Assembly: GCA_964016885.1 (NCBI GenBank)
Contig: OZ024758.1
Coordinates: 17,670,001-17,734,000 of the forward strand
Direction: 5' to 3'
Length of the DNA stretch: 64,000 nucleotides
DNA from: Eledone cirrhosa
Taxonomy: Eukaryota
A program made the translations under genes and the position numbers. The notes under the pieces were generated by a model, which had not been told where the DNA came from, did no database searches, and saw only the letters and a program-made list of their open reading frames with translations. Positions 3,269 through 64,000 of this stretch are shown piece after piece; the stretch's first letter is position 1, and each line of letters begins with the position of its first letter.

Positions 3269-3813
3269 GCCCATATATATATATATATATGTATGTAATA
3301 TACATATATATACATATATATATGTATGTATACAGAAAGAGAGTTAGAGAGAGAGAGGGGCCCTCAAAAAATCAATATGCACTTACACTATTCTAAGATA
3401 TACAGGAAGAGTTGGTAGAAATTCAATAATATGCAAGGAAATACTGAAAAGATGTAGTGACATTTCTGGCAGGCTGACATTACACCCAAGCATCAACTTG
3501 TCAAAGTCCGCTATCCTTTGTCTGAGAGGAAGAGAACACTGGGTTGGGATTGGTATTGGACATACTTGAGTGAGCTATGTGTATGAGAAAATAATAATGG
3601 TGAAGAAGCAAATCAGGTGGGGAGTAAATGTAATGGACATAGGATCAAATCAGAAATAAGTCAAAGTAAATATCACAATCTTTAGAATTCTAGATGTCTT
3701 CTGCAGTCGGTCTAACATTGATATTTAGAATTTTTTGGCATGACCGCATCCCAAATTAAGAATTTATAGCAAAGGCTAAGCTGAATAATCTACTGAATAA
3801 CATCACTGTAAAA

Positions 3814-4386
3814 TGGTAGAAGATACTTAGACATGTTCCATCAATGGCGACTTCTGGTGTTCTTGGCTCTAGGTAGAAGATGCTTAGACATGTTCCATCA
3901 ATGGAGACTTCTGGTGTTCTTGGCTCTAGGTAGAAGATGCTTAGACATATTCCATCAATGGAGACTTCTGGTGTTCTTGGCTCTAGGTAGAAGATGCTTA
4001 GACATGTTCCATCAATGGAGACTTCTGGTGTTCTTGGCCCTAGGTAGAAGATGCTTAGACATGTTCCATCAATGGAGACTTCTGGTGTTCTTGGCCCTAG
4101 GTAGAAGATGCTTAGACATGTTCCATCAATGGAGACTTCTGGTGTTCTTGGCTCTAGGTAGAAGATGCTTAGACATGTTCCATCAATGGAGACTTCTGGT
4201 GTTCTTGGCTCTAGGTAGAAGATGCTTAGACATGTTCCATCAATGGAGACTTCTGGTGTTCTTGGCCCTAGGTAGAAGATGCTTAGACATGTTCCATCAA
4301 TAGAGACTTCTGGTGTTCTTGGCTCTAGGTAGAAGATGCTTAGACATGTTCCATCAATGAAGACTTCTGGTGTTCTTGGCCCTAGG
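3814..4386. repeat. 57-bp tandem repeat, about 10 copies
   Basis: Unit aggtagaagatgcttagacatgttccatcaatggagacttctggtgttcttggctct. Confidence 0.95.
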
Positions 4387-6769
4387 GCCACCTCCCTTCT
4401 TACCACCATCAGCATAGAATGCTACCTGCAGGTGTGTGTCTCATGAAGTAGAATGTCTCATCCTGTGGGCTTCCTTCACCATCCTCTGGGAAAACACCTC
4501 TATTTTGTCTGCCGAACAGTCTAAGAACGTTAGAATTTTACCTTAGCAATTTAAATCATCCCAAATATTTTCAGATTTGTTATTAAAATTGCTAAGTTCC
4601 ACCATTCTCAATTTTTTCTCAGTTCTTTTGTCCTATTTCCTCTAATTCTTATTACCTTGGCATTTATAATCTGACACGCATTTTCAGGCTTCCAAATAAT
4701 TAAACTTAATTCTTAGTTAAATTTGTATTTCTTATTCCACAATGCTTCAAGCAAACTACAACACTTTGTTTTCAATATTGTAAGTATCTCATCGAATTCT
4801 CTAACAATTCCACCAACACTCTACCTAAAGACCTGTACTTTATTATTTATCAACTTCCAAAAGATGGAAGGTAAGGTTGACCCAAGTGTGATTTGAACTG
4901 ATAGCGTAGAACAAATACCACAGATTATTTAATCCAATGCACTAGCATCTCAGCCTATACACTGCTGCCAACAGCAATAGGTAGATTAAACAAACATGCT
5001 CCTCTGTTACTGAGATAACACTTCAAAAGTATTTGTTCTTGAAAAGTTAGATTACTCAGTGAGTGAGAAAATGAGTGAAGAATGAGCGACATTAAACATT
5101 GAAATACAGTATATCATTGTCCTGTAAAATAAAGTAGAAACTAATATTTTGCACAGTGATTGGTGCTATGTGAAGAATTAGTCTCTAATCAACTTCACCG
5201 TAAAACAATATAAAGCTCTTCAATTTTCAATTTGTATCTGATTTTTCGCCACATAAGCCATTACTATCTGACCAATGTTAATGAATATCCTTCAGTAATG
5301 TGTCAAATATGTCAGCTACACCTCTAAACATAAAAGTTATCATCTCATCTATGGTTACACATTCAACTATGCACATAGTAATCTTATCAGGAAAGACTGT
5401 AGAAATTAAAGACAGCTAATTAGAAACAACCAAAGGTAGTGTCACAATTAATATATTGCTGTAATTTTGAATTGATTTTTCCATACTTTAGATGATGAGA
5501 TCAGACATATTGTTGTGGACTATATTGCTTCAAGAGAAAGAACTTTAACCATTAGAATACAACATAACAAATCACAGTACATACACTGGTGATATGAATA
5601 GACAAATATTACATTGTATTATATATTAACGTAACTTTATACAATATGGTTAAATGATATTTGGACAATGATATTTCATCGATTTCAATGGTGAACATTC
5701 AGTTGTTTGATCAACTGAACATCCAAGTTGTGAATTAATGAGTAATAATAATGATTTTTTTTCTAAAGACACCAATTTGGGAAAAAGGGAAAGCCTATTA
5801 AATCAACCCCAGTGCATTACTGGTGCTCTATTTTATTGACCCTGTAAGGATGAAAAGCAAAGTTAGCCTAGTCAGGGTTTGAACTCAGAATTTAAAGGGT
5901 GGTAAATTTATGCTGCAAAGCATGGTGTCTGACGCTCTACTGATTCTGCCAATCCACCACCTTGTTAATGAGAAATAATAATAAGGATTTCTACTATAGG
6001 CTCAAGGCCAGCAATTTTCAGGGGAGTGAAAATTCGATTAAATCGACCGAAGTGCAATACTGGTACTTTATTTTATCGACCCCGTAAAGAGAAAAGGTCC
6101 GTGGCTGAGTTTTTAGAGATTGTGAGTTCGATTCCTTGAGCAAGGCACTTTATTTCACGTTGTTCCTTCTACCTGGAGTTGCGACCGATAGATAGTATCA
6201 GCAATTGGAAAGACCAATGGAAACAGTTTCCTCGGTCCGATTTGAAGAAAGTCAATCGACTGTCATTGGAGGATGAAAGGTAAAGTTAACCTTGGTGGGA
6301 TTTGAACTCAGAACGTAAAGGGTCATAACTCTGTGCTACAAAACAGTGTCCGACATAGTGCCAATCCACCACCACCATCATCATCGTTTTTATGTCAGAT
6401 TTACCATGCTAGTCTGATTAAGTAGGTGAATATTGGATAGACATGTATGATCCATCCAGCAGGGTTTTACACACTTTCCATTTCCCCAATTCCACTCATA
6501 TGACTTGGGTTGACTCAAGGCTATTGTATGATAAAGACACTTGCCTAAGATGATACACAGTGGAATTGAACCAAGAAACTCAGGATTTCAAAGTGATCTT
6601 CTTAGCCACTCGAATACACCTGCATATCTCTATGGCCCCACTACGTCACAAATAACCATGGTTTTTCACCTAGAAAGTTTCCCTCTGAGTCACAAACCTG
6701 GGCAAGGTCTGTTTTGTGGAAGACCAGTAGTTGCCCATGTATACCACACTCCCCTCTGCATGCCACCAA

Positions 6770-12468: not shown

Positions 12469-12635
12469 ATAGGAACAAGTAAGACCCCGACGGCTGAGCT
12501 CAAGCCGTTTCATCGAAACGGCTTGAGCTCAGCCGTTGGGGTTTTACTTGTTCCTATTACCCACTCTACTACCCTAAGTATTGAGTACTTTGGTGCATTA
12601 TGGTCCACCTGGTTCCTTACCACATTTCCTTCGTT
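12469..12635 (+). mobile_element. Hairpin-plus-tail element, family d, copy 1
   Basis: Inverted arms 12469-12557 (centre atc) plus a 78-bp tail; flanked by (TA)n; homologous to the copies at 42688 and 55605. Confidence 0.8.
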
Positions 12636-12700
12636 ATATATATATATATATATATAGTTCAAAATATTAATAAATGAAGACGTTCACATAATCAAAGTAT

Positions 12701-12770
12701 ATGTTTTATTATATATATTTCGGAGGTACTGTGCTGTTTTTTCAGTACGTCCTCGTCAGATAAAATACAT
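12701..12770 (-). ncRNA. Type I hammerhead ribozyme in a solo fragment (about 12657-12798) between (TA)n tracts
   Basis: Minus strand reads ttttat CTGACGA ggacgtactg..cagtacctcc GAAA tatata TA ataaaa, with palindromic stem III ATATATAT. Confidence 0.78.
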
Positions 12771-13124
12771 GAATTGATGTATGACATACCTCAAAGTTAT
12801 ATATATATATGTGTGTGTGTGGGGGGAGGGGAGGGTATATATATATTCTCTCCTTATGATTCTCTTTCGATCTACTCTCTCACAACCACTATCTCTTTCT
12901 CTATCTTTATTTATGAAGCTACCTGGAAAAACCCCCGTATCTCAGGAACCCATGCTCCTATTTATGTGAAACTGTTTTTTATTCCATTTGAATTCCAATT
13001 TCAAGGGCAACTTTCTTTCAAATTATTTTCCCACTATGCACCGTTGTGGCTGCATTAAATAAGACAAGCACACAATCTCAGAAGTTTTAATAATATACCG
13101 CCTTGCCTAAGTACAAAGCGAAAC

Positions 13125-24639: not shown

Positions 24640-26232
24640 AATGGTTTCTACTTTTGGCACAAGGCCAGCAATAACCCAATGCATTACTGGTACTTTATTC
24701 TATCGACCCCGGAATAAAGTACCAGTAATGCATTGGGTAATTGCTGGCCTTGTGCCAAAAGTAGAAACAATTATTTTAATAATGGTTTCTAATTTAGGCA
24801 CAAGGCCAGCAATTTTGGGGAGGGTAAAGCTGCTTAAATTGGCCCATTACTGGTACTTTATCGACCCCGTAGTGATGAAAGGCAAAGCTAACCTTGGTGA
24901 GATTTGAAATTGGAACCGTAACTCTATGTTACAAAGCATGTTGTCCAACGCTCTACCGATATTGCCAATCCACTGCCCTAATAGTAATAATAATAATAAT
25001 AATTGTTTCTATTTTAGGCACAAGGCCAGCAATTACCCCAGTGCATTACTGGTACTTTATTTTATCGACTCCGTAAGGATGAAAGGCAAAGTTAACCTCA
25101 GAGGGATTTGAAATCTGAATGTAAAGGGCCATAACTCTAAGCTGCAAAGCATGTTATCTGATGCCCTACCAACACTGCCATAATAATAATAATTGTTTAT
25201 ACTTTTGTCACAAGGCCAGCAATTACCCCAGTGCATTACTGGTACTTTATTTTATCGACCCCGTAAGGATGAAAGGCAAAGTTAACCTCGGCGGGATTTG
25301 AACTCAAAATGGCAAGGGCCGTAACTCTTTGCTGCAAAGCATGGCGTCCGACCCTCTACCTATACTGCCAATCCACCGCCCTTATAATAATAATGGTTTC
25401 TTATATAGGCACAAGGCCAGCAGTTTTGGGGGAGAGGAAAGTCAATTAACTCAACCCAAGTATATTACTGGTCGTGTATTTTATCGACCCCCGTAAAGAT
25501 GAACAGCATAGCTAACCTCGGCGGGATTTGAACTCAGATCATAAAGGGCCGTAACTCTATGCTGCAAAGCATGGTGTCTGACACTCTACTGTTACTGTCA
25601 ATCCACTACATTTACTGTAAAAAGATGTGTATATTTATGTTTGTGTATAAGTGTGTGCATGTAGAAGTGTGTATGTGCATAGGATTGCATGTATGTGCAT
25701 GATTGTGTGCGTGTATGTGTATGAATGTGTAATAGTATGTGCATGAATAAGTGAGTGTGTATGAGTATGTATGTATGTATGTGTGTGCGTGTGTATATGT
25801 GTGCATTATTACACTCTAGTGGAGGATTGGCAGAATCGGTAGAGGGTCGGACACCATGCGTTGACGCATAGAGTTACGACCCTTGTCATATCCTGCCGAG
25901 GTTAACTTTGCCTTTCATCCTTACGGGACCGACAAAATAAAGTACCAGTAATGCACTGGGATAATTGCTGGCCTTGTGCCTAACGTAGAAACAACTATTA
26001 CACTCTAGTTTGGGCGCTGGATTGGCAGTAACGGTAGAGTGGGACACCATGCTTTGTAACATAGAGTTACGGCCCTGTACGATCTGAGTTCTGGTCCTGC
26101 TGTGGTTAACTTCCCCTTTCATCCTTACGGGGTCGATAAAATAAAGTACCAGTAGTACATTGGGGTCAATTTAATCAACTTACCCCTACCCCTCAAAATT
26201 GCTGGCCTTTTGCCAGACATAGAAACAATTAT
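24640..26232. mobile_element. Cluster of about 8 SINE family 2 copies (minus-strand run 24780-25610, plus-strand run 25818-26232, fold-back at 24640-24775)
   Basis: Repeated ggcacaaggccagcaat...actggtactttattttatcgaccccgtaaggatgaaaggcaaagttaacctcgg. Confidence 0.85.
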
Positions 26233-29723: not shown

Positions 29724-30816
29724 TATATTGTTGTAGTTTGTTAGAGTTATTTTTCTAATGAAAACACATGCACTTTACAGGTAAAGAAGATAATTAATCT
29801 TGCAAACCAGTTAATATAAATCAACAAAATTAAATCATTAATTTGTGAAAGTTCTATCATCACAGTCAAAATTAAACAAACGAGACGGTTATTTTAGAAA
29901 AACGAACGAGATGGTTATAAAATATCAGACACAATCAGCGAGTAAGCTTAAATAAAATCCTTGAATTTTGGGCAGAAGGCTTAAATAAAATCCTCGAATT
30001 TTGGGCAGAAGGTTTAAATAAAATCCTCCAATTTTTGGCATAATTGGACAAGCATATAACAGTAATAAGCGGATAATTATGGGATTTTAAAATACAAGAA
30101 GATTATTTAGAACAATCAGACAGAATTATAGAATAGCATTGAGAAAGAGCAAAGATTTGATTCTGGACGATGATACGGATAGATGAATGGACCGGCGGCA
30201 GATGGACAGAAGAGAAAAAAAAAAGCACCCAGCACTCACTGTAAATGAGGTTGGTGTTAGGAAGGGCATCCAGCTGTAGAAATCAAGCCAGAATCAGTTC
30301 CCATCCCACCCTTGCAAGCAGGGAAAAGCGGACGTAAAATGATGATGATGATGATGATATATATATATATATATATATATTAGGTTATGCAAGAAATGCT
30401 TAGGATTATCCTGAATGCAGTAATGGTTAATTACGATACTAGATAGAGTCGACGTACAGTGAGGGTTATTCAATGAGTTATGGAAGAATAGTTGGAAAAA
30501 TTCAGTTTCTGATCCTTCTGTATTCCGGAGTGTAGATAAAGAATGAATCATAACAGGTAGACATCATAAAAAGGTAATTTATTCCGAGTGCTTACAAATG
30601 TTTCAACAGTAGTTATACAACCTAGACATGCTATGTGCAAATTGGTGATTATTTGATTGCAGACACTCAATTTTCAAATGCTGTGACTACCGTTTCCTCA
30701 GAGCAGAATGGTTAAAATGTAAATACCCTTGTATTTCTTAAGGGAAGTTATTTCTACTCTATCTTCTCCAATAACTTCCTTTAAGAAATACAAGGGTATT
30801 TACATTTTAACCATTC

Positions 30817-30933
30817 TGCTCTGAGGAAATGGTAGTCGGAGCATTTGAAAATTGAGCGTCTGCAATCAAATAATCACCAATTTGCACATAGCATGTCTAG
30901 GCTGTATAACTACTGTTGAAACATTTGTAAGCA
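30817..30933 (+). ncRNA. Type I hammerhead ribozyme-like motif with a 90-nt stem II domain
   Basis: Stem I tgct/agca; CTGAGGA 30821-30827; stem II base aatggtagt/actactgtt; GAAA 30918-30921; stem III ACA-tt-TGT; predicted cleavage after GUA at 30929. Confidence 0.68.
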
Positions 30934-30971
30934 CTCGGAATAAATTACCTTTATATGATGTCTACCTGTTA

Positions 30972-31143
30972 GTATCGGTAGAGGGTCGGACGCCATGCTT
31001 TCCAGCATAGTTACGTCCCTTTACGATCTGAGTTCAAATGCTGCCGAGGTTGACTTTGCCTTTCATCCTTACGGGGTCGATAAAATAAAGTACCAGTAAT
31101 GTACTGGTTAATTGCTGGCCTTGTGCCTAAAGTAGAAACAATT
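30972..31143 (+). mobile_element. 5'-truncated SINE family 2 copy inside the palindrome arm
   Basis: gtatcggtagagggtcggacg...gtagaaacaatt. Confidence 0.88.
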
Positions 31144-31153
31144 ATTCATTCTT

Positions 31154-31629: not shown

Positions 31630-32639
31630 GTGAAGAGTGATTTAGATATGTGTTAGATGTGTGTTATAAATATATATATATGTGTGTGTGTATATGTGTA
31701 TATATATGTGTGTATGTATGTGTGTATATATATATATGTATATATATGTATATATGGGTGGATGAAATAATTACGTACACACATATATCTAAATATTAAT
31801 AGATAGAAAGATGGTTGTATTTATATAGATATATTATACACCATCATCTTCATTTTTCCATCTACATACATACATATACATGCATGTATATATATATGTG
31901 TATATATATATATATGTGTATATATATATATACACATATATATATATATATACATATATATATACATATATATATGTATATATATATACATATATATGTG
32001 TATGTGTGTATATATATATATATAATTAAATTTATTGCTGATTAATCTGTATGAAGGCTGAATCCAATTTACAATTTTAATTAAGGCATAACGTTCTACC
32101 AGAATTACTAATCCCATGGTATTATCATTTGTAATACACATATGCTAATGATATTAATATAACGAAGCACCACAGCATGACGATGAGAAGTAAGTTAAAA
32201 TTAGGAGCTTGTTTTTATGAACTGTATGAACTTTTAGTAGTGAAACCAAAGCTGTTTGTTTACCATAAACAGATGTTCATAATTTTACCTTTCACTTGTT
32301 CCTTGAATATATGTATATATATATATATTCTTTAATTTCTCATATTATTTTCTGATGACGGACTAGTGTAAAAAACGTAAAGAATCTTTTCCTATAATAT
32401 CAAGCATAAAAATTAATATTATATTTCTTCATTGTACTCTGTCATTTGCTTTGTTATTTCTGTTTGTCTTTTGCATACATATCATCATCACCGTTTAACG
32501 TCTATTTTTCCATGATATCATGGGTTAGATGTCTTGTCCTCTTGTGAGAAATGCAAGGTGAGGTGACCATGTCTTGCTCATACAGAACTGATTTTGGCTT
32601 GGTTTCTACAGCTGGTTGCCCTTCCTAATTCCAACCTTA

Positions 32640-34290
32640 TTTACTGTGAGTACTGGGTGCATTTTGCCATGACACCTACACGACCACTTTACAGTGTGGA
32701 CTGGGTGCTTTTTGTTGTGATACCTACACGACCACTTTACAGTGAGTACTAGATGCTTTTTGTCGTGACACCTACACAACCATTTTACAGTGAGTACTAG
32801 GTGCTTTTTGTCGTGACACTTACATGGCCATTTTACAGTGAGTGCTAGGTGCTTTTTGTCGTGACACCTACATGGCCATTTTACAGTGAGTACTAGGTGC
32901 TTTTTGTCATGACACCTACATGGCCATTTTACAGTGAGTGCTAGGTGCTTTTTGTCGTGACACCTACATGGCCATTTTACAGTGAGTACTAGGTGCTTTT
33001 TGTCATGACACTTACATGGCCATTTTACAGTGAGTACTAGGTGCTTTTTGTCATGACACCTATATGGCCATTTTACAGTGAGTGCTAGGTGCTTTTTGTC
33101 GTGACACCTACTAGGCCATTTTACAGTGAGTACTAGGTGCTTTTTGTCATGACACTTACATGGCCATTTTACAGTGAGTGCTAGGTGCTTTTTGTCGTGA
33201 CACCTACATGGCCATTTTACAATGAGTGCTAGGTGCTTTTTGTCATGACACCTACATGGCCATTTTACAGTGAGTGCTAGGTGCTTTTTGTCGTGACACC
33301 TACATGGCCATTTTACAGTGAGTACTAGGTGCTTTTTGTCGTGACACCTACATGGCCATTTTACAGTGAGTGCTAGGTGCTTTTTGTCGTGACACCTACA
33401 TGGCCATTTTACAGTGAGTGCTAGGTGCTTTTTGTCGTGACACCTACATGGCCATTTTACAGTGAGTGCTAGGTGCTTTTTGTCGTGACACCTACATGGC
33501 CATTTTACAGTGAGTGCTAGGTGCTTTTTGTCGTGACACCTACATGGCCATTTTACAGTGAGTGCTAGGTGCTTTTTGTCGTGACACCTACATGGCCATT
33601 TTACAGTGAGTGCTAGGTGCTTTTTGTCATGACACCTACATGGCCATTTTACAGTGAGTGCTAGGTGCTTTTTGTCGTGACACCTACAAGGCCATTTTAC
33701 AGTGAGTGCTAGGTGCTTTTTGTCATGACACCTACATGGCCATTTTACAGTGAGTACTAGGTGCTTTTTGTCATGACACCTACTAGGCCATTTTACAGTG
33801 AGTACTAGGTGCTTTTTGTCGTGACACCTACATGGCCATTTTACAGTTAGTGCTAGGTGCTTTTTGTCGTGACACCTACATGGCCATTTTACAGTGAGTG
33901 CTAGGTGCTTTTTGTCATGACACCTACTAGGCCATTTTACAATGAGTGCTAGGTGCTTTTTGTCATGACACCTACATGGCCATTTTACAGTGAGTACTAG
34001 GTGCTTTTTGTCATGACACCTACTAGGCCATTTTACAGTGAGTACTAGGTGCTTTTTGTCGTGACACTTACATGGCCATTTTACAGTTAGTGCTAGGTGC
34101 TTTTTGGCGTGACACCTACATGGCCATTTTACAGTGAGTACTAGGTGCTTTTTGTCATGACACCTACTAGGCCATTTTACAGTGAGTACTAGGTGCTTTT
34201 TGGCGTGACACCTACATGGCCATTTTACAGTGAGTGCTAGGTGCTTTTTGTCATGACACCTACTAGGCCATTTTACAGTGTGGACTGGGT
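32640..34290. repeat. 48-bp satellite, about 34 copies, expanded inside a family 1b element (from about 32482)
   Basis: Unit ccattttacagtgagtgctaggtgctttttgtcgtgacacctacatgg, preceded by ctacagctggttgcccttcctaa and an RTE-type tail. Confidence 0.95.
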
Positions 34291-37200
34291 GTTTTTTTTT
34301 ATGACGACTACACAACAACTTCTTGTTGGTCCATTACACTTAGCTGAAAATGAGTACCAGGAGTAGCTGGGAGTTAACGCATCCTGTCTAGTGGAAAGTC
34401 ATGTAATCTCTGTTGTTTAACAAACAATGAAAAGTGAACCTGGGAATAAGCACCAGCTTGATGTGAGCTTTGTGGCTTGAGGTACACTTTAACCTTTTGT
34501 TTTTACATATTCACACATTTGCTTCCTCCCATGCATACACACCTACACATTTACATGCATATGCACACACACACACACACATACATGCGCATATATATAT
34601 ATATATTATACACTCATGCACACACATATATATATATGCATGCACACATAAACACACATATATGCTCACATCCATATATACACACATGCACACCAGCACG
34701 CACCCACATACAAACACATATATACCCTCATCCATACACACACATACACCCTCACACATACACACGCAAATACAAACACATATACACCCTCACACACATA
34801 CACCCACATATACAAATACATATACACCTTGACACATACACACCTTTACATATACACACATAGATATATACACATATACACACACACATATACAAACACA
34901 TATACACCTTCAAGCATACACATATACAAACACATACATTACATATACACCCACACACATACACACCCTCACACAGCCACATACACACACGTTATACTAA
35001 ACATTAAGTTTACAGCACTATAAGAACATGTTATGAATGAATCAGCTAATACACGCTAGTTTCAAAAACCATAGGATACCAGAACCTAAATGAACGCAAC
35101 TGATATTAAATAAATGAAAAGATTCAATCTATAAAATCAAGATAGATAATCGCTCTTTTCCATTATAATGAAACTACAGTAACATTGGATGTATTACAAA
35201 AATATATTTTGAAGAATACAGGTAAAAAACAACAACTATATTTAAAAATAAAGCTATAATTTGGGCATTATCTGGTGTATTGACTGATTTTAGATAGGTC
35301 TGATTTATTACGTGGTTGTTGAAATAATCTAATTTGAGTATAGTATTTCATTACAAATTTAAACCTCTATTTCCTATGCTTGAAAGCTGTCCTCCATTGC
35401 AGGCAAATCTATCTATGATTTCTTGGAGTTAATTATTTAAGAATCTCTCATTTTTCTTTCTCTCTCTCTCTCTTTTTTTCTGTTTCTCTGTCTTTATGTT
35501 TTCCTCTCCCTTCATCTCTATCTGTTGCTTGCTTTCTCTCTCTCTGAATTAAAAAAAACTACAACAACAAAACAATACACTGTTGAATACAAACAATACA
35601 ATGCAGTTCTCTCAATGAGTTTTCAGGGATGAAAAGACTTGCACTGAAATCTGAAATCTCATTTAAACACTTGTTAATTATACAGCGAGGTGTTTTTTTT
35701 TTTGCAATCTCTCAGAACATGACAGCTATTTTTATACCTAAGTGCAATCAGCTTTTGATAGTCAAATAACGTTTCCAGAAATACAGAAAAACATAGGTGA
35801 AGATTAGAACCTTTTGATCACAAATCAGTTGATCTGCTGCATCACATTTTATGGTTAAGACAAGGTCTGAAAAATAACTATTATTGTAATCATAAAAGAA
35901 GATAAAGATCTCATAACTCCTTGTGGAGTTGTAGAGGCACTGTCATACGACGTGTCTAGGGCACTTTTATACTTGGTGGTGCCCAGATATATATTATTAT
36001 TATTTTAACGTTTATAGGCATTTTAATGGATCACGTCCGATATTTGCAGTTTTTCACTTAAAGATTCTTACATAAAATTATGATGAAACATTTTTAGATA
36101 ACTATAAATATTTTACAATAAATAGTTTTGAAACCTATAACCAGTGGTTTATTATAAAAAAATGTTGATTCATCTTAAAACGTTATGATTTTAAATCTGT
36201 AGCTACTACAATAGATCTGGTGAACTAAATATTTAACTTTCTCATTGAAATAGAACTACAATGCAAGCATGTGCAATTAACCTTATATGGATATTGTATA
36301 AATTTAAGGAATAAACTAAATCAAACAAGTCTGATATGTGAATTTAAATATTTACTGCAAGACATCTTCTTATTTTGAAGCATTTGGTGGATTTATAGAT
36401 TTATCTATATTAAAATTGAAAAAAAAACAACATTTAAATGGAACAGAAATATGGAAAACCATTTCTAAAGAAAAAACTCAAGGAGCTTAAAATATAAAGT
36501 TAAAAGTAAAAATTACACCCACACACATATATATATACACACACACATATATATACACACATATATATATATACACACATATACGCACACACATATATAT
36601 ATGCAAACACACACACATACATATATACACACATATATACACATAATACATATATATACACACACACATATACACACACGCACATATATACACACACACA
36701 CATATATATATATATACACACATCATCATCGCTATCTTAATTTTACGTCAATTATTTTCTGTATATGTATGTATATAACGTAATATAAGTGAAGATATTT
36801 TCGGTCATCAAAAGTATACCTGATATAACCAGGCTACTACTTCAAAGAAGAATCTGGGACAGTCAGGAATATCTTGTTATGCTTTATCTGTACCATCCTT
36901 TTCAAGTTATCACTGCAATATTTGTTATAAATTTTAAACTTTATGGGAACATATATAGCAATTTCAAGAATGAAGGCTTAGTTCAGTTGTTCATCTATAA
37001 AAGCCAAAATTTCTCATTGAAAATTGTACTCATATTAAACACAAATTGCTATTTTCGCGTATTATTTTTCCAATGGATTACAGTGAAGTCTTCGATGCAT
37101 ATATATATGAAAATAGAAATTGTGAGGGAAAATATTGGATTCAATTTCTTGGCAATTTACATTCTGCTTTATTCTAGGCAATGTATATAACCGATTCCCT

Positions 37201-42690: not shown

Positions 42691-42881
42691 GGAACCAGTA
42701 AGACCCCGACAGCTGAGCTCAAGCCGCTTCGACGGCTAATTCTGCCGAGAATTAGCCGTCGAAACGGCTTGAGCTCAGCTGTCGGGGTCTTACTGGTTCC
42801 TATTACCCACTCTACTACCTCAAGTATTGAGTACTTTGGTGCGTTATGGTCCACCTGGTTCCTTACCACATTTCCTTCGTT
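42688..42881 (+). mobile_element. Hairpin-plus-tail element, family d, copy 2
   Basis: Inverted arms 42688-42803 (centre gccg), same tail, (TA)n flanks. Confidence 0.8.
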
Positions 42882-42900
42882 ATATATATATATATATATA

Positions 42901-43319
42901 TGTGTAGGAGGTGAGTTTTATTGTAGTACAATAAAGCAATGCAGATATCGGATAAGTAGCACTCTACAGTTTGTAGGACTGGAGTATGCATAATATAAGA
43001 TCAAAAGATGGTTAAAGGAGTTCCATGTATTTTATTATGCGCATTTCAAAAACAAACATCATCATGCAATAATATTTGTGTTTTCATCAGATAAAACAGG
43101 AGAACATGATATGAAGGCTAAAAAACACTTGTGGATAGTGCAGTTTTAAATCTACATATATGTAGATTTAAAACTGCACTATCCACAAGTGTTTTTTAGC
43201 CTTCATATCATGTTCTCCTGTTTTATCTGATGAAAACACAAATATTATTGCATGATGATGTTTGTTTTTGAAATGCGCATAATAAAATACATGGAACTCC
43301 TTTAACCATCTTTTGATCT

Positions 43320-43327
<8 letters not shown>
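42901..43327. mobile_element. Palindromic hammerhead-containing element (Penelope pLTR-like): 169-bp arms 42990-43327 plus unpaired tail 42901-42989
   Basis: Apparently perfect palindrome centred at 43158|43159, with (TA)n on both sides and a hammerhead core in each arm. Confidence 0.75.
43219..43290 (+). ncRNA. Type I hammerhead ribozyme (mirror copy on the minus strand at about 43027-43098)
   Basis: Stem I tgttttat/ataaaata; CTGATGA 43227-43233; long stem II hairpin 43234-43269; GAAA 43270-43273; palindromic stem III ATGCGCAT; predicted cleavage after AUA at 43281. Confidence 0.8.
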
Positions 43328-43383
<56 letters not shown>

Positions 43384-43384
43384 A

Positions 43385-43633
43385 CAGGGTGCGGATGATA
43401 TTTGTTCACAAGATTACTGTCTAGGAAAAAATAACACAGTACTTTTATTTTTTAAGATATATTTAGCAAACTTGGGTCAGTTTGTCTTCATGACTTGTTC
43501 TTTCAATCTCACTCAATAAACCCGCTATTGGCTTTGATTACGGCCTCAAGGCGGCCTCGGAACCGGCTACAGGCCTTCGTCACTGTCCCCCGACTTAGGC
43601 CCCTAAAGGCACTTGTGATCCTGGCCTTAAATC
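43385..43633 (-). mobile_element. Right end of a Tc1/mariner-superfamily transposon: transposase C-terminus plus TIR
   Basis: Minus frame FKARITSAFRGLSRGTVTKACSRFRGRLEAVIKANSGFIE* resembles the typical Tc1/maT C-terminal helix; terminus TA-CAGGGTG at 43385. Confidence 0.75.
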
Positions 43634-53146: not shown

Positions 53147-53486
53147 TCATCATCATCATCATCATCATCATTTTACGTCTGCTTTTCCCTGCTTGGAAGG
53201 GTGGGACGGATTCTGGCTTGATTTCTACAGCTGGATGCCCTTCCTAACACCAACCTCATTTACAGTGAGTGCTGGGTGTTTTTTGCCATGGCACCTCCAC
53301 GACCACTTTGCAGTGGAATGATAGGGACACCAGTCCCTATCATCTCATTTCTACAGCTGAGTAAACTGGAGCAATGTGAAATAAAGTGTCTTGCTCAAGG
53401 AAACAACACATCACCTGGTCTGAGAATTGAACTCACAACCTTTCGAATGCAAGGCCAATGCTCTAACCACTAAGACATGTGCCTCT
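53147..53486 (-). mobile_element. SINE family 1 copy (left member of head-to-head pair)
   Basis: Family consensus with (CAT)n at the left end. Confidence 0.88.
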
Positions 53487-53497
53487 ATATATATATA

Positions 53498-53832
53498 CAT
53501 GGCTTAGTCGTTAGAGCATTGGCCTTGCAATCGAAAGGTTGTGAGTTCAATTCTCAGACCGAGTGATGTGTTGTTTCCTTGAGCAAGTCACTATATTTCA
53601 CATTGCTCCAGTTTACTCAGCTGTAGAAATGAGATGATAGGGGCTGGGGTCCCTATCATTCCACTGCAAAGTGGTCGTGGAGGCACCACGGCAAAAAAGC
53701 ACCCAGCACTCACTGTAAATGAGGTTGGTGTTAGGAAGGGCATCCAGCTGTAGAAATCAAGCCAGAATCAGTTCCCGTCCCACCCTTGCAAGCAGGGAAA
53801 AGTAGACGTAAATAGATGATGATGATGATGAT
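53498..53832 (+). mobile_element. SINE family 1 copy (right member of head-to-head pair)
   Basis: Reverse complement of the family consensus, ending in (GAT)n. Confidence 0.88.
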
Positions 53833-54006: not shown

Positions 54007-54012
<6 letters not shown>

Positions 54013-54454
54013 GATATTAAACAAATGGAAACTATATTTATAAAACCATATTTATTTCATTAGACATATTTCGGGGATACCATATTAAAAATATGGCATG
54101 CCTTCTTCAGATAAAATACAATATATAAACAGTTTTATAAATAATTTTGACGTACCATAAATATTGAGCAACCGTTATGTAGGAAGCCGGCTTCCTACAT
54201 AACGGTTGCTTAATATTTATGGTACGTCAAAATTATTTATAAAACTGTTTATATATTGTATTTTATCTGAAGAAGGCATGCCATATTTTTAATATGGTAT
54301 CCCCGAAATATGTCTAATGAAATAAATATGGTTTTATAAATATAGTTTCCATTTGTTTAATATCGTATATCTACTCCAAAACTTGTCGAGTGCTTTATAT
54401 CAGTTATAAAATATTTACTTGTTGTAACCCAACAATTTTAAATAAAACTTTTGC
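54007..54454. mobile_element. Palindromic hammerhead-containing element: 182-bp arms 54007-54370 plus tail 54371-54454
   Basis: Centre aggaagcc|ggcttcct at 54188|54189; one mismatch seen between arms; (TA)n on both sides. Confidence 0.75.
54259..54324 (+). ncRNA. Type I hammerhead ribozyme-like motif
   Basis: Stem I tattttat/atgaaata; CTGAAGA 54267-54273; stem II atgccatatt-ttt-aatatggtat; GAAA 54305-54308; N6 tatgtc; UA 54315-54316. Stem III pairing is weak. Confidence 0.7.
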
Positions 54455-54477
54455 ATATATATATATATATATATATA

Positions 54478-55604: not shown

Positions 55605-55809
55605 ATAGGAACAAGTATGACTCCGACGGCAGAGCTCAAGCCCTTTTGATGGCTAATTCTGGACTCATTCTGTCCAGAATTAGCCGTTGAAACGGCTTGA
55701 GCTCTGCCGTCGGGGTCATACTTGTTCCTATTACCCACTCTACTACCCTAAGTATTGAGTACTTTGGTGCATTATGGTCCATTTGGTTCCTTACAACATT
55801 TCCTTTGTT
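55605..55809 (+). mobile_element. Hairpin-plus-tail element, family d, copy 3
   Basis: Inverted arms 55605-55731 (centre ggac-tcattct-gtcc), same tail, TA-rich flanks. Confidence 0.8.
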
Positions 55810-57935: not shown

Positions 57936-60900
57936 ATCATCATCATCATTCATCATCATCATTTTACGTCCGCTTTTCCCTGCTTGCAAGGGTGGGACGG
58001 GTCTTATTCAGCACAGCATCTCTCCACTCGTCACGGTCCCTCGTCATCTCCACCGTGAGCTTCAATGATCTGAGGTCTGTTCTCACCACCTCCGCCCATG
58101 TTTTTCGTGGTCTACCTCTACTACGTCTTCCTTCAACTGGCATTTCCTGGCACTTCTTCACCCATCGGTCATCCTCCATGCGCATCACATGTCCATACCA
58201 CCTCAGTCTCCTCTCCCGTACACTACATTCTATCCCTCTCAGACACAGTTTCTCTCTCAACACATTTATGCTGGGTCGTTCACGCACATTTACACTGCAC
58301 ATCCAACGGAGCATGCTTGCCTCATTTCTCTCCAGCCGTCGCATATCTTCTGCGGTAGCTGCCCATGTCTCACTACCATGCAGCATCGCGCTCCTCACAC
58401 AGGCATCATACAACCGGCCTTTCGTACGCAGGGAGAAACCCTTCTTCGTCAACAGAGGAAGCAGCTCCCTAAACTTCTTCCAACCCGTCCTTATTCTAGA
58501 TACTATGGCCTCGGAACACCCTCCTCCCATGCTAATCTGATCTCCTAGGTACCGGAAGCTATCCACCACTTCTATAGCGCCCTCTCGCATTTGAAAAATG
58601 TGTCTATCAGTGCGACTTCTACTGTCTAATTTCCCTGTACATCTACTGCATACATATTTCTCCCTACCTGTTAGTTTGCCTGCTATCCCGCTACATCTCT
58701 TGTGTACCCAGGACCTACATTGTGTGCATTTTATAGAATTTATGCCAGTTCCTTTTCTGCATATCGAACATGGCCATTTCCCTGACGGAATCAGGGTTTT
58801 GTCCTCTTTTCTACTCATCAACACTTTTGTCTTAGCTAGATTTACTCTCAGTCCTCTTGCTTCCAACTGCTGTTTCCATAGCCGGAATTTATTCTCTAGC
58901 TCCTCTACTGATTCTGCCATAAGAGCCAGATCGACAGCATAGAGAAGTTCCCATGGACAGCCAGTCTTAAACTCCTCTGTTATGGCTTGGAGGACTATAA
59001 TGAACAAGAGCGGGCTGAGGACCGAACCCTGATGTACTCCTACTTGTATCTGGAATTCCTCACTAAACTCCATTCCTACCCTGACTTTACTGAGAGTACC
59101 TCTGTACAAAGTTTGCACTGTCCTTACAAGCCATTCCTCAACACCCAGCTTCCTTAGGGACCACCAGATGACAGATCGGGGTACCCTATCAAAGGCCTTC
59201 TCTAGGTCAACAAAGGCCAAGTATAGTGGCTTATTCTTCTCTAAGAACCTCTCTTGCATTTGTCTCACCAAGAAGAGGGCATCTGTTGTACTCTTCCCAG
59301 GCACAAAACCAAACTGCATCTCATCTAGTTTGACCCTTTCTCTAATTAGTTGTGCTAAAATCCTTTCTGCCACTTTCATAACCTGATCTATCAGTTTTAT
59401 ACCCCTATAATTGCTCCTCTCCAAAGCATCCCCTTTACCTTTGTAGCAATTTATGAGAATACTGCTGCACCAGTCTTTGGGTATGACACCACCATATATA
59501 GCCTGATTGATTATGCGTGCAACCAGTTTAGTGCCTACGTCCCCTGATGCCTTCAGCATCTCAGCAACTATTCCCGATGGTCCGGCCGCCTTACCATTTT
59601 TCATTTCCCTAATCGCCTCTTGGACCCTATATTCGTCAATCTCAATAGCTGGTCCCTCTGTCGGATCTACCAAGGGTAATTTCTCTCTCTCCCATTCGTT
59701 CTCCACATTCATCAGTCTCTCATAATGGCATTTCCAGGCCTCCTTTTTCTGGTCATTCGTGACACTAAGTACACCGGCATCATCCCGGACACATTTATCA
59801 CCAACAACATCCTGATTTGCATTGACACACTGCCTTGCAATGTGGAACACCGCACGCCTCTGATCTTCCCGTCGCAGAACATTGGCAAACCTCCTACTCT
59901 CTGCCTCCCTGCGTGCTAAGTACACCTGACGTCTAGCTTCTCTCTTAGTGGCTGTATATTCTTCCCTACTCCCACCCTTATTCCAAGCCTTCCATGCTAG
60001 TCTTTTGTCTCTAATAGCCTTATCTACACTGCTGTTCCACCACCAGGTCACTCTCTGTCTGGTTGGGGCTCTGCTCCAGCCACAAGTTTCATCAGTAGCC
60101 TTCAGCAAGTTGTCACGTAAGAACTTCCAGTTATTATCTATGTCATACGTCTCTAAATCGTCTTCTTTTTCGTCATATACATCTTGAAGGGCTTTCCTAA
60201 ATTTGAATTTTAGTGAAAGGTCTTTTAGCTTCCAGACCTTTCTTCTCCACACCTTCCTATATGGCTCATTCCATCTCTTGCTTACTGAGATATCACTAAC
60301 AACTAACCTATGCTGTGGGGTACATTCTTCCCCAGGGTATGCCTTGGTATTAGACACTATCTGCCTGTCCCGCTGCCTAACTAGCAGGAAGTCAATCTGG
60401 CTTATGTGCTCACCAGATTTGTAGGTTATTAGGTGATTGGCAGGTTTCTGGAAGTTTGTGTTGCAAATAGTCAATGTACTTGCATCACAAAATTCAAGAA
60501 GTCTCACTCCTTCTTCATTTCTTGAACCGTAACCATGCCCACCATGTACCCCAGTGTAACCATCCTGGAGCTGTCCAACATGACCATTGAAGTCTCCTGC
60601 TAGCATAACGATGTCTCCGTCCTCTGTCATTGTGGTTGTTTGCAAAAGTTGCTCATAAAAGCAGTCTTTCTCATCTTTGCCTAGGCCTGCTTGGGGAGCA
60701 TAGACCGAGATGATTGTCAGTAGTCTCCTACCTACAACTAATCTAAGCTTAATTATTCGATTACTAACTCGAACTACCTCTATTGTCTTATTGATCCATT
60801 TCTCAGCCAGGAAAATGCCTACTCCCCCTAACCCATCATCCTTACCTACCCAGAATAGCTTATAGCTAAGACGCTTGCCTACGACTAGTCTCGCAGAGGC

Positions 60901-61223
60901 ACCTCTCCATCTCACCTCTTGCACGCAGCACACATCCACCTGCCTTCTCTCCAGCATCTCCGCTATTTCAGCAGATCTACCTCTGAGAGTGCCAACATTA
61001 AGTGTTGCAACTCTGAGATGCGACGTCTTCATATTTTTTTCTATGCTGTTTTGTTGCTGTGCTGATAAGCTTTTTGGCATTGATACACTGGTTGGATGCC
61101 CTTCCTAACACCAGCGCCACTTTACAGCATGGACTGGGTGCTTTTATTTGTGCCACCAGCACTAGAGAGGATGTCTTACTAGACTCAAGGGCCCTCTCTA
61201 CCCCTCCATTTTACAGCATGGTC

Positions 61224-62430: not shown

Positions 62431-63149
62431 AACACATATACTAATGAACATACATTAAACACAGAGGGACTGTAAATGATGATAGCAATATCTAGATATA
62501 AATATATAAATGTACATATCTCTATTGGTCTCATAAATTTTAAATTTTCTCTTTCCTCTTGTGTGTGTGTAGCAACACGTGGTTGTGTGTTGCTGCTGAC
62601 TCTAGCAGAGCCCAAGAAAACACGTCTTGCCCTAACAGCTGCTGCTCCCTATATCTATACATAAAGACACACATATATATATATATAAAGACACACATCA
62701 TCATCATCATCATTTTACATCCGCTTTTCCCTGCTTGCATATATATAAACACACAGACACATATGTTCATATGTGTGTGTGAATGTACAATATAACTGAA
62801 CATATGAAATCATATGTTCAATGTATATTTGGTTTATTTATTACCATTTTAAATCATTCTTTATTTCTTCATATCGATTTGCCTCTATTTACTTAATCAG
62901 TTGAGAATGTTATCCAATCAACTTATGAATGAATAGTGTCAGTACCAAAATAGAATGGAAAGAATATTAACATAAATTATTAAATATAGTAAAGTACTTT
63001 TAGATGTTGGTGTCATGACAAAAAGCACCCAGCCCACTCTGTGAAGTGGTCCTGTAGGAATTATGACAAAAAAGCACCCAGCCCACACTGGTAGTAGTCA
63101 TGTAGAAGTTATGACAAAAAGCACCCAGCACACATTATTAATATGGTTG

Positions 63150-63338
63150 GCGGTGGATTGGCAGTATCGGTAGAGGGTCAGACGCCATGCTTTCCAGCAT
63201 AGTTACGTCCCTTTACGATCTGAGCTCAAATCCCGCCGAGGTTGACTTTGCTTTTCATCCTTACATGGTCGATAAAATAAAGTACCAGTAATGCACTGGA
63301 TAATTGCGGGCCTTGTGCCTAAAGTAGAAACAATTATT
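63150..63338 (+). mobile_element. SINE family 2 (tRNA-like head, Meta-domain-like core, aaacaattatt end) inserted into a family 1b element
   Basis: ggcggtggattggcagtatcggtagag...gttgactttgcttttcatccttacatggtcgataaaataaagtaccag. Direct repeat attattaatatggttggcg at 63134-63152 and 63333-63351 (TSD). Confidence 0.85.
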
Positions 63339-63503
63339 AATATGGTTGGCGTTAGGAAGGGCATCCAGCCAGAGAAGACAAGCCAGAAACAGTTCTGTGT
63401 GAGCAAGAGGGGTCTCCTGATCCAACTTGCCTCAAAACGTGACAACTGGTCTGGCCCATACTAACATGGAAAAATAGATGCTAAACGATGATGATGCTGA
63501 TTA

Positions 63504-63887
63504 TAATAATAATTGTTTCTACTTTAGGCACAAGGCCAGCAATTACCCAGTGCATTACTGGTACTTTATTTTATCGACCCCGTAAGGATGAAAGGCAAAG
63601 TCAACCTCGGCGGGATTTGAACTCAGATCATAAAGGGACGTAACTATGCTGGAAAGCATGGCGTCCGACCCTCCACCGATACTGCCAATCCACCACCCTA
63701 ATAATTGTTTCTACTTTAGGCACAAGGCCAGCAATTACCCAGTGCATTACTGGTACTTTATTTTATCGACCCCGTAAGGATGAAAGGCAAAGTCAACCTC
63801 GGCGGGATTTGAACTCAGATCGTAAAGGGACGTAACTATGCTGGAAAGCATGGCGTCCGACCCTCTACCGATACTGCCAATCCACCG
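63504..63887 (-). mobile_element. Head-to-tail dimer of SINE family 2
   Basis: Two ~190-bp near-identical copies (63504-63698 and 63700-63887). Confidence 0.88.
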
Positions 63888-64000
63888 ACCATTATATTAA
63901 TAATGATTATAATAATAATGATGGCACTTAACCTTTTGCCTGACTGACAAACCAAAACTAACAACAGTTAAGTAACACCATTAGTTTGTTTCCTCATAAC

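What the first reader, a model, noticed from the sequence alone, without database searches (positions are those of the whole stretch)
42901..43327. Family of fold-back DNA elements at (TA)n, each arm carrying a hammerhead ribozyme
Seen: three long palindromes with unrelated sequences (30551-30971, 42990-43327, 54007-54370) share one architecture: (TA)n flanks, 170-200 bp arms, an unpaired tail on one side only, and stemI-CUGANGA-stemII-GAAA-N6-UA-stemI' in each arm. A solo copy at 12701-12770 (minus) has the same layout. Stem II differs completely in sequence and length (31, 36, 31 and 90 nt) yet still pairs, which argues for selection on RNA structure. Established: Penelope-like elements carry type I hammerheads in their pseudo-LTRs and often insert with an inverted partial pLTR lacking the 3' extension. 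Inference: these are short, ORF-less, (TA)n-targeted ribozyme retroelements from several distinct Penelope-like lineages. Because they are palindromic, transcription from either strand gives one sense hammerhead plus its full antisense, a built-in choice between self-cleavage and long dsRNA.
Basis: partly seen in the sequence, partly recalled or inferred. Interest (0 to 1): 0.9.

Follow-up and report, generated by a model that had tools for sequence, protein, structure and literature searches.

The report
Cap-ended hairpins of Penelope-like retrotransposons
These DNA hairpins are ends of very active jumping genes (Penelope-like retrotransposons) joined head to head; thousands of copies stop at one spot, often with an extra G that likely records the RNA cap, so they likely form when the element copies the front end of its own messenger RNA twice at one insertion site.

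Summary
The palindromes and all seven hammerhead motifs are real and sit where stated. They are not a separate ORF-less family. Each arm is the terminus (pLTR, optional 'tail') of an ORF-bearing Penelope-like element with Hydra-clade motifs; family A (43 kb) has an intact 821-aa RT/GIY-YIG frame and at least 6,002 arm copies. Inverted, tailed, hammerhead-bearing PLE ends at (TA)n are published. What I did not find in print: short arms end at one position (an Initiator-like +1), and where (TA)n abuts it the extra base is G in 85 of 96 copies (background 11%), as cap copying gives in L1. Head-to-head pairs carry exactly one tail (33 of 35), are both short or both long (34 of 35) and share rare variants. 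Best reading: both strands of a cut (TA)n prime on one capped, uncleaved RNA, at the two ends of the tail, run to the cap and join. Few copies start at the ribozyme cut site. The proposed cleavage/dsRNA switch is unlikely, because antisense is transcribed first from either side. Neighbouring family E has its +1 inside its ribozyme. No RNA data or cleavage assay.

The parts
42901..42989 (-). Family A tail (5' UTR of the parent element; lies between pLTR end and ORF in full copies)
42990..43159 (-). Family A tailed arm; starts at inferred +1 (43159); hammerhead CUGAUGA 43090-43084, cut after 43036
43158..43327 (+). Family A tail-less arm; starts at inferred +1 (43158), 2-nt AT overlap with the other arm; hammerhead 43227-43281, stem III AUGCGCAU palindromic
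43328..43385 (.). (TA)n target, right flank of A
42881..42900 (.). (TA)n between family E tail and family A tail
42691..42880 (+). Family E hairpin copy: inverted arm 42691-~42748, sense arm ~42749-42800, tail 42801-42880; holds only the 3' half of a U3-A8 hammerhead
54007..54190 (-). Family B tail-less arm; hammerhead cut after 54061; starts at parent +10
54187..54370 (+). Family B tailed arm; CUGAAGA at 54267, cut after 54316; joined through a 4-nt CCGG overlap
54371..54455 (+). Family B tail
30382..30550 (-). Family C tail (169 nt; precedes the ORF in L192)
30551..30752 (-). Family C tailed arm; hammerhead 30701-30593, 90-nt stem II
30751..31153 (+). Family C tail-less arm, hammerhead 30821-30929, interrupted by a SINE at about 30970-31142
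12657..12794 (-). Family D solo arm without tail, starts about 32 nt downstream of the family's +1; hammerhead 12759-12710
12472..12634 (+). Second family E hairpin copy, next to D
55608..55805 (+). Third family E hairpin copy

Best explanation
The hairpins are insertions left by ORF-bearing Penelope-like retrotransposons with Hydra-clade motifs, and each is likely made when both strands of a cut (TA)n site prime reverse transcription on one capped, uncleaved element RNA, run off at its 5' cap and are joined head to head. Shown: arms are pLTR termini of RT/GIY-YIG elements; short arms end at one position; an extra G often sits there; pairs have one tail and share variants. Inferred: that position is the transcription start; the G is the copied m7G cap; the two primers anneal at the TA-like sites at either end of the tail (one copy gets the tail, the other does not); joining uses 2-4 nt microhomology or a few added bases. 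The hairpins are then by-products, probably without promoter. The hammerhead is selected in the parent element, not in the hairpin; my best guess is that two copies pair through the palindromic stem III to cut (perhaps circularise) long RNAs that template the more-than-unit-length copies.
For: Parent: 821-aa frame with YRDD and a GIY-YIG-like domain, bounded by arm+tail upstream and arm downstream; ORFs also linked to B, C, D and E arms. Fixed end: of 95 arms taken in genome order, 32 end within 2 nt of +1 (18 exactly), 16 further in, none 3-57 nt upstream, 47 further up. 4,314 arms have a non-parent base at -1, while copies continuing upstream keep the parent C in 4,002 of 4,028. With (AT)4 abutting +1 the -1 base is G/A/C = 85/8/3 in A, 43/33/5 in D, 79/15/6 in the first 100 of 184 in E; background G is 11%. 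Context is YY-C/T-A(+1), Initiator-like (recalled consensus), in A, B1, D and E. Pairs: one tail in 33 of 35 (a 34th has a partial tail); 19 short-short, 15 long-long, 1 mixed against 17 expected; rare variants shared by both arms. In 10 of the 60 insertions the tailed piece is shorter than its partner or is tail only, which simple fold-back does not give. Some junctions have the G on both arms (L223/224). In vitro a PLE cuts and extends both strands, starts at two sites bracketing the tail and prefers uncleaved RNA (PMC11167929); L1 full-length insertions carry a cap G (PMC11702581).
Against: No RNA data: the start site and cap are inferred from DNA (one search listed no RNA holder). The window's own A and B copies carry no extra G. 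Family C shows no single 5' end in 30 arms, and the (AT)4 test found 0 matches for B1. Reverse transcriptases can add untemplated bases for other reasons. Unequal arms can also come from later deletion at a palindrome centre, and shared variants from gene conversion or fold-back. Pfam and PDB searches gave no RT or endonuclease hit; the protein call rests on motifs and on by-eye likeness to published Hydra proteins. The ribozyme's role is a guess.
Confidence: 0.68

Rival explanations
1. Same parent elements and cap run-off, but one primer only: the tailed cDNA folds back at its 3' end, copies itself, and the endonuclease or repair trims the second arm at the TA-like site before the tail.
For: Perfect or near-perfect centres recur; arms share variants; 5 pairs have the tailed arm longer. 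Self-priming was proposed in PMC3846280 and EN-mediated resolution of the tail in PMC8557442.
Against: 10 of 60 insertions have the tailed piece shorter than its partner or tail only; junctions with G on both arms and a 2-nt centre; the antisense-template version does not explain a G at the sense +1.
Confidence: 0.2
2. The short copies are self-propagating non-autonomous ribozyme retroelements (first reader; retrozyme-like), transcribed from their own loci and copied by the PLE protein in trans.
For: About half of A arms are short (50 of 95); some junctions recur; an internal promoter is known for Drosophila Penelope (PMC2377424), so a copy starting at +1 might be transcribed.
Against: Junctions are diverse; no short-only subfamily held up; TATA-like boxes of D and E lie upstream of +1 and are lost; no head-to-tail arrays of short units in the 60 insertions examined.
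Confidence: 0.08
3. The hairpins are ordinary random 5' truncations or assembly fold-back artefacts.
For: 5' truncation with inversion is the published description; family C ends look scattered.
Against: Single-base 5' boundary with G excess in three families; asymmetric tail; arm mismatches and a SINE; opposite-strand joints at the same boundary in public short-read contigs (one run may be the assembly's own sample).
Confidence: 0.04

Closest known systems
Hydra-clade EN+ Penelope-like elements (Craig et al. 2021, PMC8557442), including Hydra-1_Obim from Octopus bimaculoides and Penelope-13_HM
   Same: C-terminal GIY-YIG, DKT, CxCX5C linker, CxxC and CxH, no CCHH, hammerhead near the 3' end, (TA)n targets; Penelope-13_HM has an inverted 5'-truncated copy with the hammerhead listed on both strands.
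   Different: Different families (other hammerhead sequence than Hydra-1_Obim); A unit 3.86 kb rather than under 3 kb; longer stem II (31-90 nt); fixed G-marked 5' ends not described in the passages and table read.
Minimal hammerheads of metazoan PLEs (Cervera and de la Pena 2014, PMC4209133)
   Same: Core, short palindromic stem III for dimers, dual motifs 100-700 bp apart on opposite strands ascribed to truncated PLEs, U3-A8 variant.
   Different: That paper gives no account of how the opposite-strand pairs form; family E's stable stem III with the start site inside stem II is not in the parts read.
PAc Poseidon element in vitro (Frangieh et al. 2024, PMC11167929)
   Same: Two internal start sites bracketing the tail, both strands cut and extended, predicted dimer, uncleaved RNA used.
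   Different: Other clade; did not describe inverted products or cap run-off in genomes in the parts read.
L1 twin priming and cap-derived G (PMC11702581)
   Same: Second primer from the other target strand; extra G at complete 5' ends; microhomology joins.
   Different: L1's two cDNAs cover different stretches; here they mostly overlap fully, giving a palindrome.
Non-LTR retrozymes (PMC7229834 listing; bioRxiv 10.64898/2026.07.22.740005)
   Same: Short PLE-derived sequences with type I hammerheads.
   Different: Retrozymes are head-to-tail tandems thought to propagate via circles; these are head-to-head pairs of parent termini.

Membership tests
EN+ Penelope-like element | Single ORF with RT and C-terminal GIY-YIG endonuclease | tested here: met
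   821-aa frame, YRDD at 378, IYECKII..YFG at 700; by motif only, no Pfam hit
EN+ Penelope-like element | Pseudo-LTR from partial tandem, inverted 5' copy, optional tail | tested here: met
EN+ Penelope-like element | Hammerhead in the pLTR | tested here: met
Hydra clade | DKT instead of DKG; GxKF/Y absent | tested here: met
   A and E proteins; definition
Hydra clade | CxCX5C linker, CxxC and CxH, no CCHH | tested here: met
   CNCRIKNKC, CNLC, CLH in A; CNCPDRSIC, CNLC, CKH in E
Hydra clade | RWK motif | tested here: inconclusive
   RWT in A, RWR in E
Hydra clade | (TA)n insertion preference | tested here: met
   3' flanks
Hydra clade | Generally under 3 kb (a tendency, not a definition) | tested here: not met
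   A unit 3,864 nt in L172
Hydra clade | Placement in the RT tree with reference Hydra proteins | not tested
   Reference proteins seen only in a supplement; compared by eye
Type I minimal hammerhead | CUGANGA / GAAA / UH core with stems I-III | tested here: met
   Only position 7 of the core varies among 19 variants picked by a core-requiring scan; covariation of stems
Type I minimal hammerhead | Palindromic stem III allowing a dimer | tested here: inconclusive
   Perfect in A (-10.5 kcal/mol) and D; imperfect in B and C
Type I minimal hammerhead | Self-cleavage | not testable with these tools
   needs an assay
Non-LTR retrozyme | Head-to-tail tandem of short hammerhead units, independent of an ORF | tested here: not met
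   Pairs are head to head; arms shared with ORF copies
Non-LTR retrozyme | Circular RNA | not testable with these tools
   no RNA holder listed
MITE / fold-back DNA transposon | Symmetric terminal inverted repeats from a DNA transposon | tested here: not met
   Ends asymmetric (tail), sequence belongs to an RT element

The most novel reading that the evidence does not exclude
The hairpins are a genome-wide fossil record of the Penelope-like cycle: a dimeric RT-endonuclease primes twice on one capped RNA, giving cap-ended dead-end hairpins, while ribozyme cleavage and ligation supplies cap-less circular templates for the more-than-unit copies that regain a promoter; family E hard-wires this by starting transcription inside its hammerhead, so that only the downstream copy is a complete ribozyme.
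Probability: 0.3. Interest if true: 0.78.

Novelty: new variant of a known kind. Interest (0 to 1): 0.52.

Why it matters
How Penelope-like elements make their inverted repeats and tails, and what their hammerheads do, are named as open questions in PMC8557442 and PMC3846280. Thousands of young copies give base-level clues: a capped sense RNA as template, two primers, an uncleaved ribozyme. The intact 821-aa ORF with near-identical copies is a ready substrate for in vitro tests. The genome also holds an estimated 1,200 perfect or near-perfect hairpins from the youngest A subfamily alone (extrapolated from 38 of 95 arms to 6,002), a possible source of small RNAs and instability. The objects themselves are a known kind.

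Tried and rejected
Rfam: no hammerhead among 150 of 270 matches shown. Pfam and PDB: no RT or GIY-YIG hit. Homolog search: 25 proteins, one named, an automatic 'GATA zinc finger' label from Argonauta hians, not informative on function. Runs: no RNA holder listed, so expression is untested; laid contigs cannot show starts or levels. One search used a mis-registered structure and was redone. A short-only subfamily seemed to appear; it came from my sampling pattern, as 9 of 30 copies of that subfamily continue upstream, 5 of them to ORF. LTR-like strand transfer after cap copying: expected G at -1 in long copies, found 1 of 4,028 in A and 0 in E (no denominator counted); not supported, though not excluded if the extra base is trimmed. 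Cut ribozyme fragments as main templates: 38 matches, 18 of 30 examined truly start at the cut site, against about 1,100 estimated at +1; a small excess over background is not excluded and copies with A at the junction are invisible to this test. B1 (AT)4 test: 0 matches. The large B count (37,130) covers many related subfamilies, not one. Earlier findings of this scan: none.

Full report
Observation. The three palindromes are present with arms of 170, 184 and 202 nt and 0, 1 and 7 differences, each between (TA)n runs with a tail on one side. A strict type I hammerhead scan gave 5 motifs against 0.02 per shuffled window; a relaxed scan gave all 7 at the stated positions. The 54-kb pair was missed by the strict scan because its stem II opens with a mismatch. 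For 19 hammerhead variants that I picked from the 201 distinct motifs, 97% of cells pair and 10 of 14 pairs show compensatory change (one search was mis-registered). Relatedness can inflate the shuffle control, but all slid controls are far lower. The fold is under selection; cleavage is untested.

What they belong to. The host is a 3.0-Gb animal genome, probably an octopod (SINE recognised from memory; one homolog named from Argonauta). The 43-kb arm (family A) has many 100% identical copies, some flanking an ORF. The protein search scored 124 matches at 97-100% identity, many with an open frame of 821 aa. Full copies read pLTR, tail, ORF, about 1.1 kb of 3' UTR, pLTR, so the 'tail' is the 5' UTR. 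B (54 kb), C (30.5 kb) and D (12.7 kb) arms are likewise linked to ORF pieces 30-70% identical to A; I did not find intact full ORFs for them. Exact motif counts: A 6,002, B group 37,130 (many subfamilies), C 193, D 1,059. The A protein shows DKT, CxCX5C, CxxC, CxH and no CCHH, the marks of the Hydra clade, which carries hammerheads, targets (TA)n and already includes an octopus family (PMC8557442). Pfam and PDB searches did not recognise it. Inverted 5'-truncated copies with a tail and opposite-strand hammerhead pairs 100-700 bp apart (PMC4209133) are published. The architecture is therefore known.

A fixed 5' end. I took 95 of the first 100 A arms in genome order. Thirty-two end within 2 nt of one base, 16 further inside, none 3-57 nt upstream, 47 further up. 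The base is the A of parent TTTTC|ATATG; B1, D and E show TC|ACT or TT|AGT at their boundaries, Initiator-like by recalled consensus, and D and E have TATA-like boxes about 30 nt upstream. Genome-wide, 4,314 A arms have a non-C base at -1 (first 100 by recount 45 G, 44 T, 11 A), whereas arms that continue upstream keep C in 4,002 of 4,028. Where (AT)4 abuts the boundary, the -1 base (T excluded by design) is G/A/C = 85/8/3 in A, 43/33/5 in D and 79/15/6 in the first 100 of 184 in E; background after (AT)4 is 11% G. An extra G at complete 5' ends is the cap signature of L1 (PMC11702581). I infer run-off at a capped start. Against: C shows no single boundary in 30 arms, the B1 test had no matches, and the window's own A copy (both arms at +1, 2-nt overlap) and B copy (both at +10, CCGG overlap) carry no G.

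Two primers on one RNA. Of 35 head-to-head pairs, 33 have exactly one tail, one has a partial tail, one has two tails and differing arms. Nineteen are short-short, 15 long-long, 1 mixed, against 17 mixed expected for independent arms. Rare variants are shared by both arms. In 6 pairs the tailed arm is the shorter and in 4 unpaired arms the partner is a tail-only piece (more), so neither piece contains the other; in 5 pairs the tailed arm is longer. Both RNA sites are TA-like and could anneal to the target. This fits the in vitro behaviour of a Poseidon element: both strands cut and extended, two start sites bracketing the tail, uncleaved RNA preferred (PMC11167929). Fold-back followed by trimming or later deletion remains the main rival; self-priming on an antisense template (PMC3846280) does not explain the G at the sense start.

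The ribozyme. Short copies span the cut site intact, and few begin there (18 of 30 examined among 38 matches), so templates were mostly uncleaved. Yet 15 of 20 full-ORF copies reach upstream of +1, which a once-capped unit transcript cannot template; circles, tandem read-through or template jumps are needed. A jump after cap copying left no G scar. Ribozyme-made circles, proposed in PMC4209133, fit but are unproven. In a read-through transcript of a hairpin the antisense arm comes first from either side and the whole folds to -288 kcal/mol, so the proposed switch is unlikely.

Family E. Directly beside A (42691-42880) lies a fifth family with the same hairpin-plus-tail layout, 34,379 motif matches and a 786-aa frame with Hydra motifs. 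Long copies fold into a full hammerhead with a U3-A8 core and a stable stem III, and the G-marked boundary lies inside stem II. Its hairpins hold only half a ribozyme, so a complete ribozyme is not needed in the hairpin.

Independence of the short copies. 66 of 96 short A arms are within one substitution of a long copy in hand; the apparent exception has ORF-linked copies. A self-propagating short lineage is not shown, though only a few hundred copies were examined. Public contigs (not on record as RNA) show opposite-strand joints at the boundary and much higher summed depth over +1 to tail end; this is no copy number, and one run may be the assembly's own sample.

Literature seen. Parts 1-2 of 4 of PMC4209133 and PMC11167929; passages, section 11, supplement part 2 and supplement hits of PMC8557442; part 1 of 5 and passages of bioRxiv 10.64898/2026.07.22.740005; passages of PMC3846280, PMC2377424, PMC11702581, PMC13282606 and PMC8969392; PMC7229834 as a listing only. 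Searches showed no report of cap-ended or twin-primed PLE insertions; subscription papers (such as Arkhipova 2006), unread parts, figures and other supplements may hold it.

Verdict. Real and mostly of a known kind; the cap-ended, doubly primed reading is the new part. Identity as PLE termini about 0.95, cap run-off about 0.85, twin priming about 0.7, ribozyme-made circles about 0.35.

Noticed in passing
window 42691-42880, 12472-12634, 55608-55805; L494:3379-5736: Family E, another PLE with Hydra motifs (34,379 motif matches); its U3-A8 hammerhead has the inferred start site and a TATA-like box inside stem II.
   Followed up: yes
tails of A, B, D, E (window 42901-42989, 54371-54455, 42801-42880; L187): Shared motif ACTC..15-20 nt..GAGT(G/A)CTT at the start of the tail, also resembling the end of Hydra-2_Amil in the supplement; candidate protein-binding element.
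   Followed up: partly
alignment A1, columns 19/49: Stem II keeps a mostly pyrimidine-pyrimidine mismatch at one register in most variants.
   Followed up: no
C1 sample: The tail lies on the minus-strand arm in 24 pairs and on the plus-strand arm in 9; orientation should be random. Unexplained.
   Followed up: no
L161:4129-6591, about aa 590-680: Asn-rich insert between RT and endonuclease, recalling N-rich inserts in rotifer Penelope ORFs (PMC3846280).
   Followed up: no
window 53279-53698: Palindrome of two head-to-head SINE-like copies around a short (TA)n; no hammerhead found.
   Followed up: partly
window 63133-63905, 24663-24749, 30970-31142: Copies of one SINE, several in inverted arrangement.
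   Followed up: no
window 57964-61104 (-): 1,046-aa open frame with endonuclease- and RT-like motifs, RTE-type LINE by recall; catalytic motif reads YAVD.
   Followed up: no
window 32606-34333 and 3756-4421: Long tandem repeat arrays that read as repetitive open frames.
   Followed up: no
L045, L018, L197, L387 and others: Further unrelated type I hammerhead families in flanking DNA, with palindromic loops such as UGAUCA and CACGUG.
   Followed up: partly
family D, +28 to +32: AGACA at the canonical DPE position (recalled consensus), with TATA at about -30.
   Followed up: no
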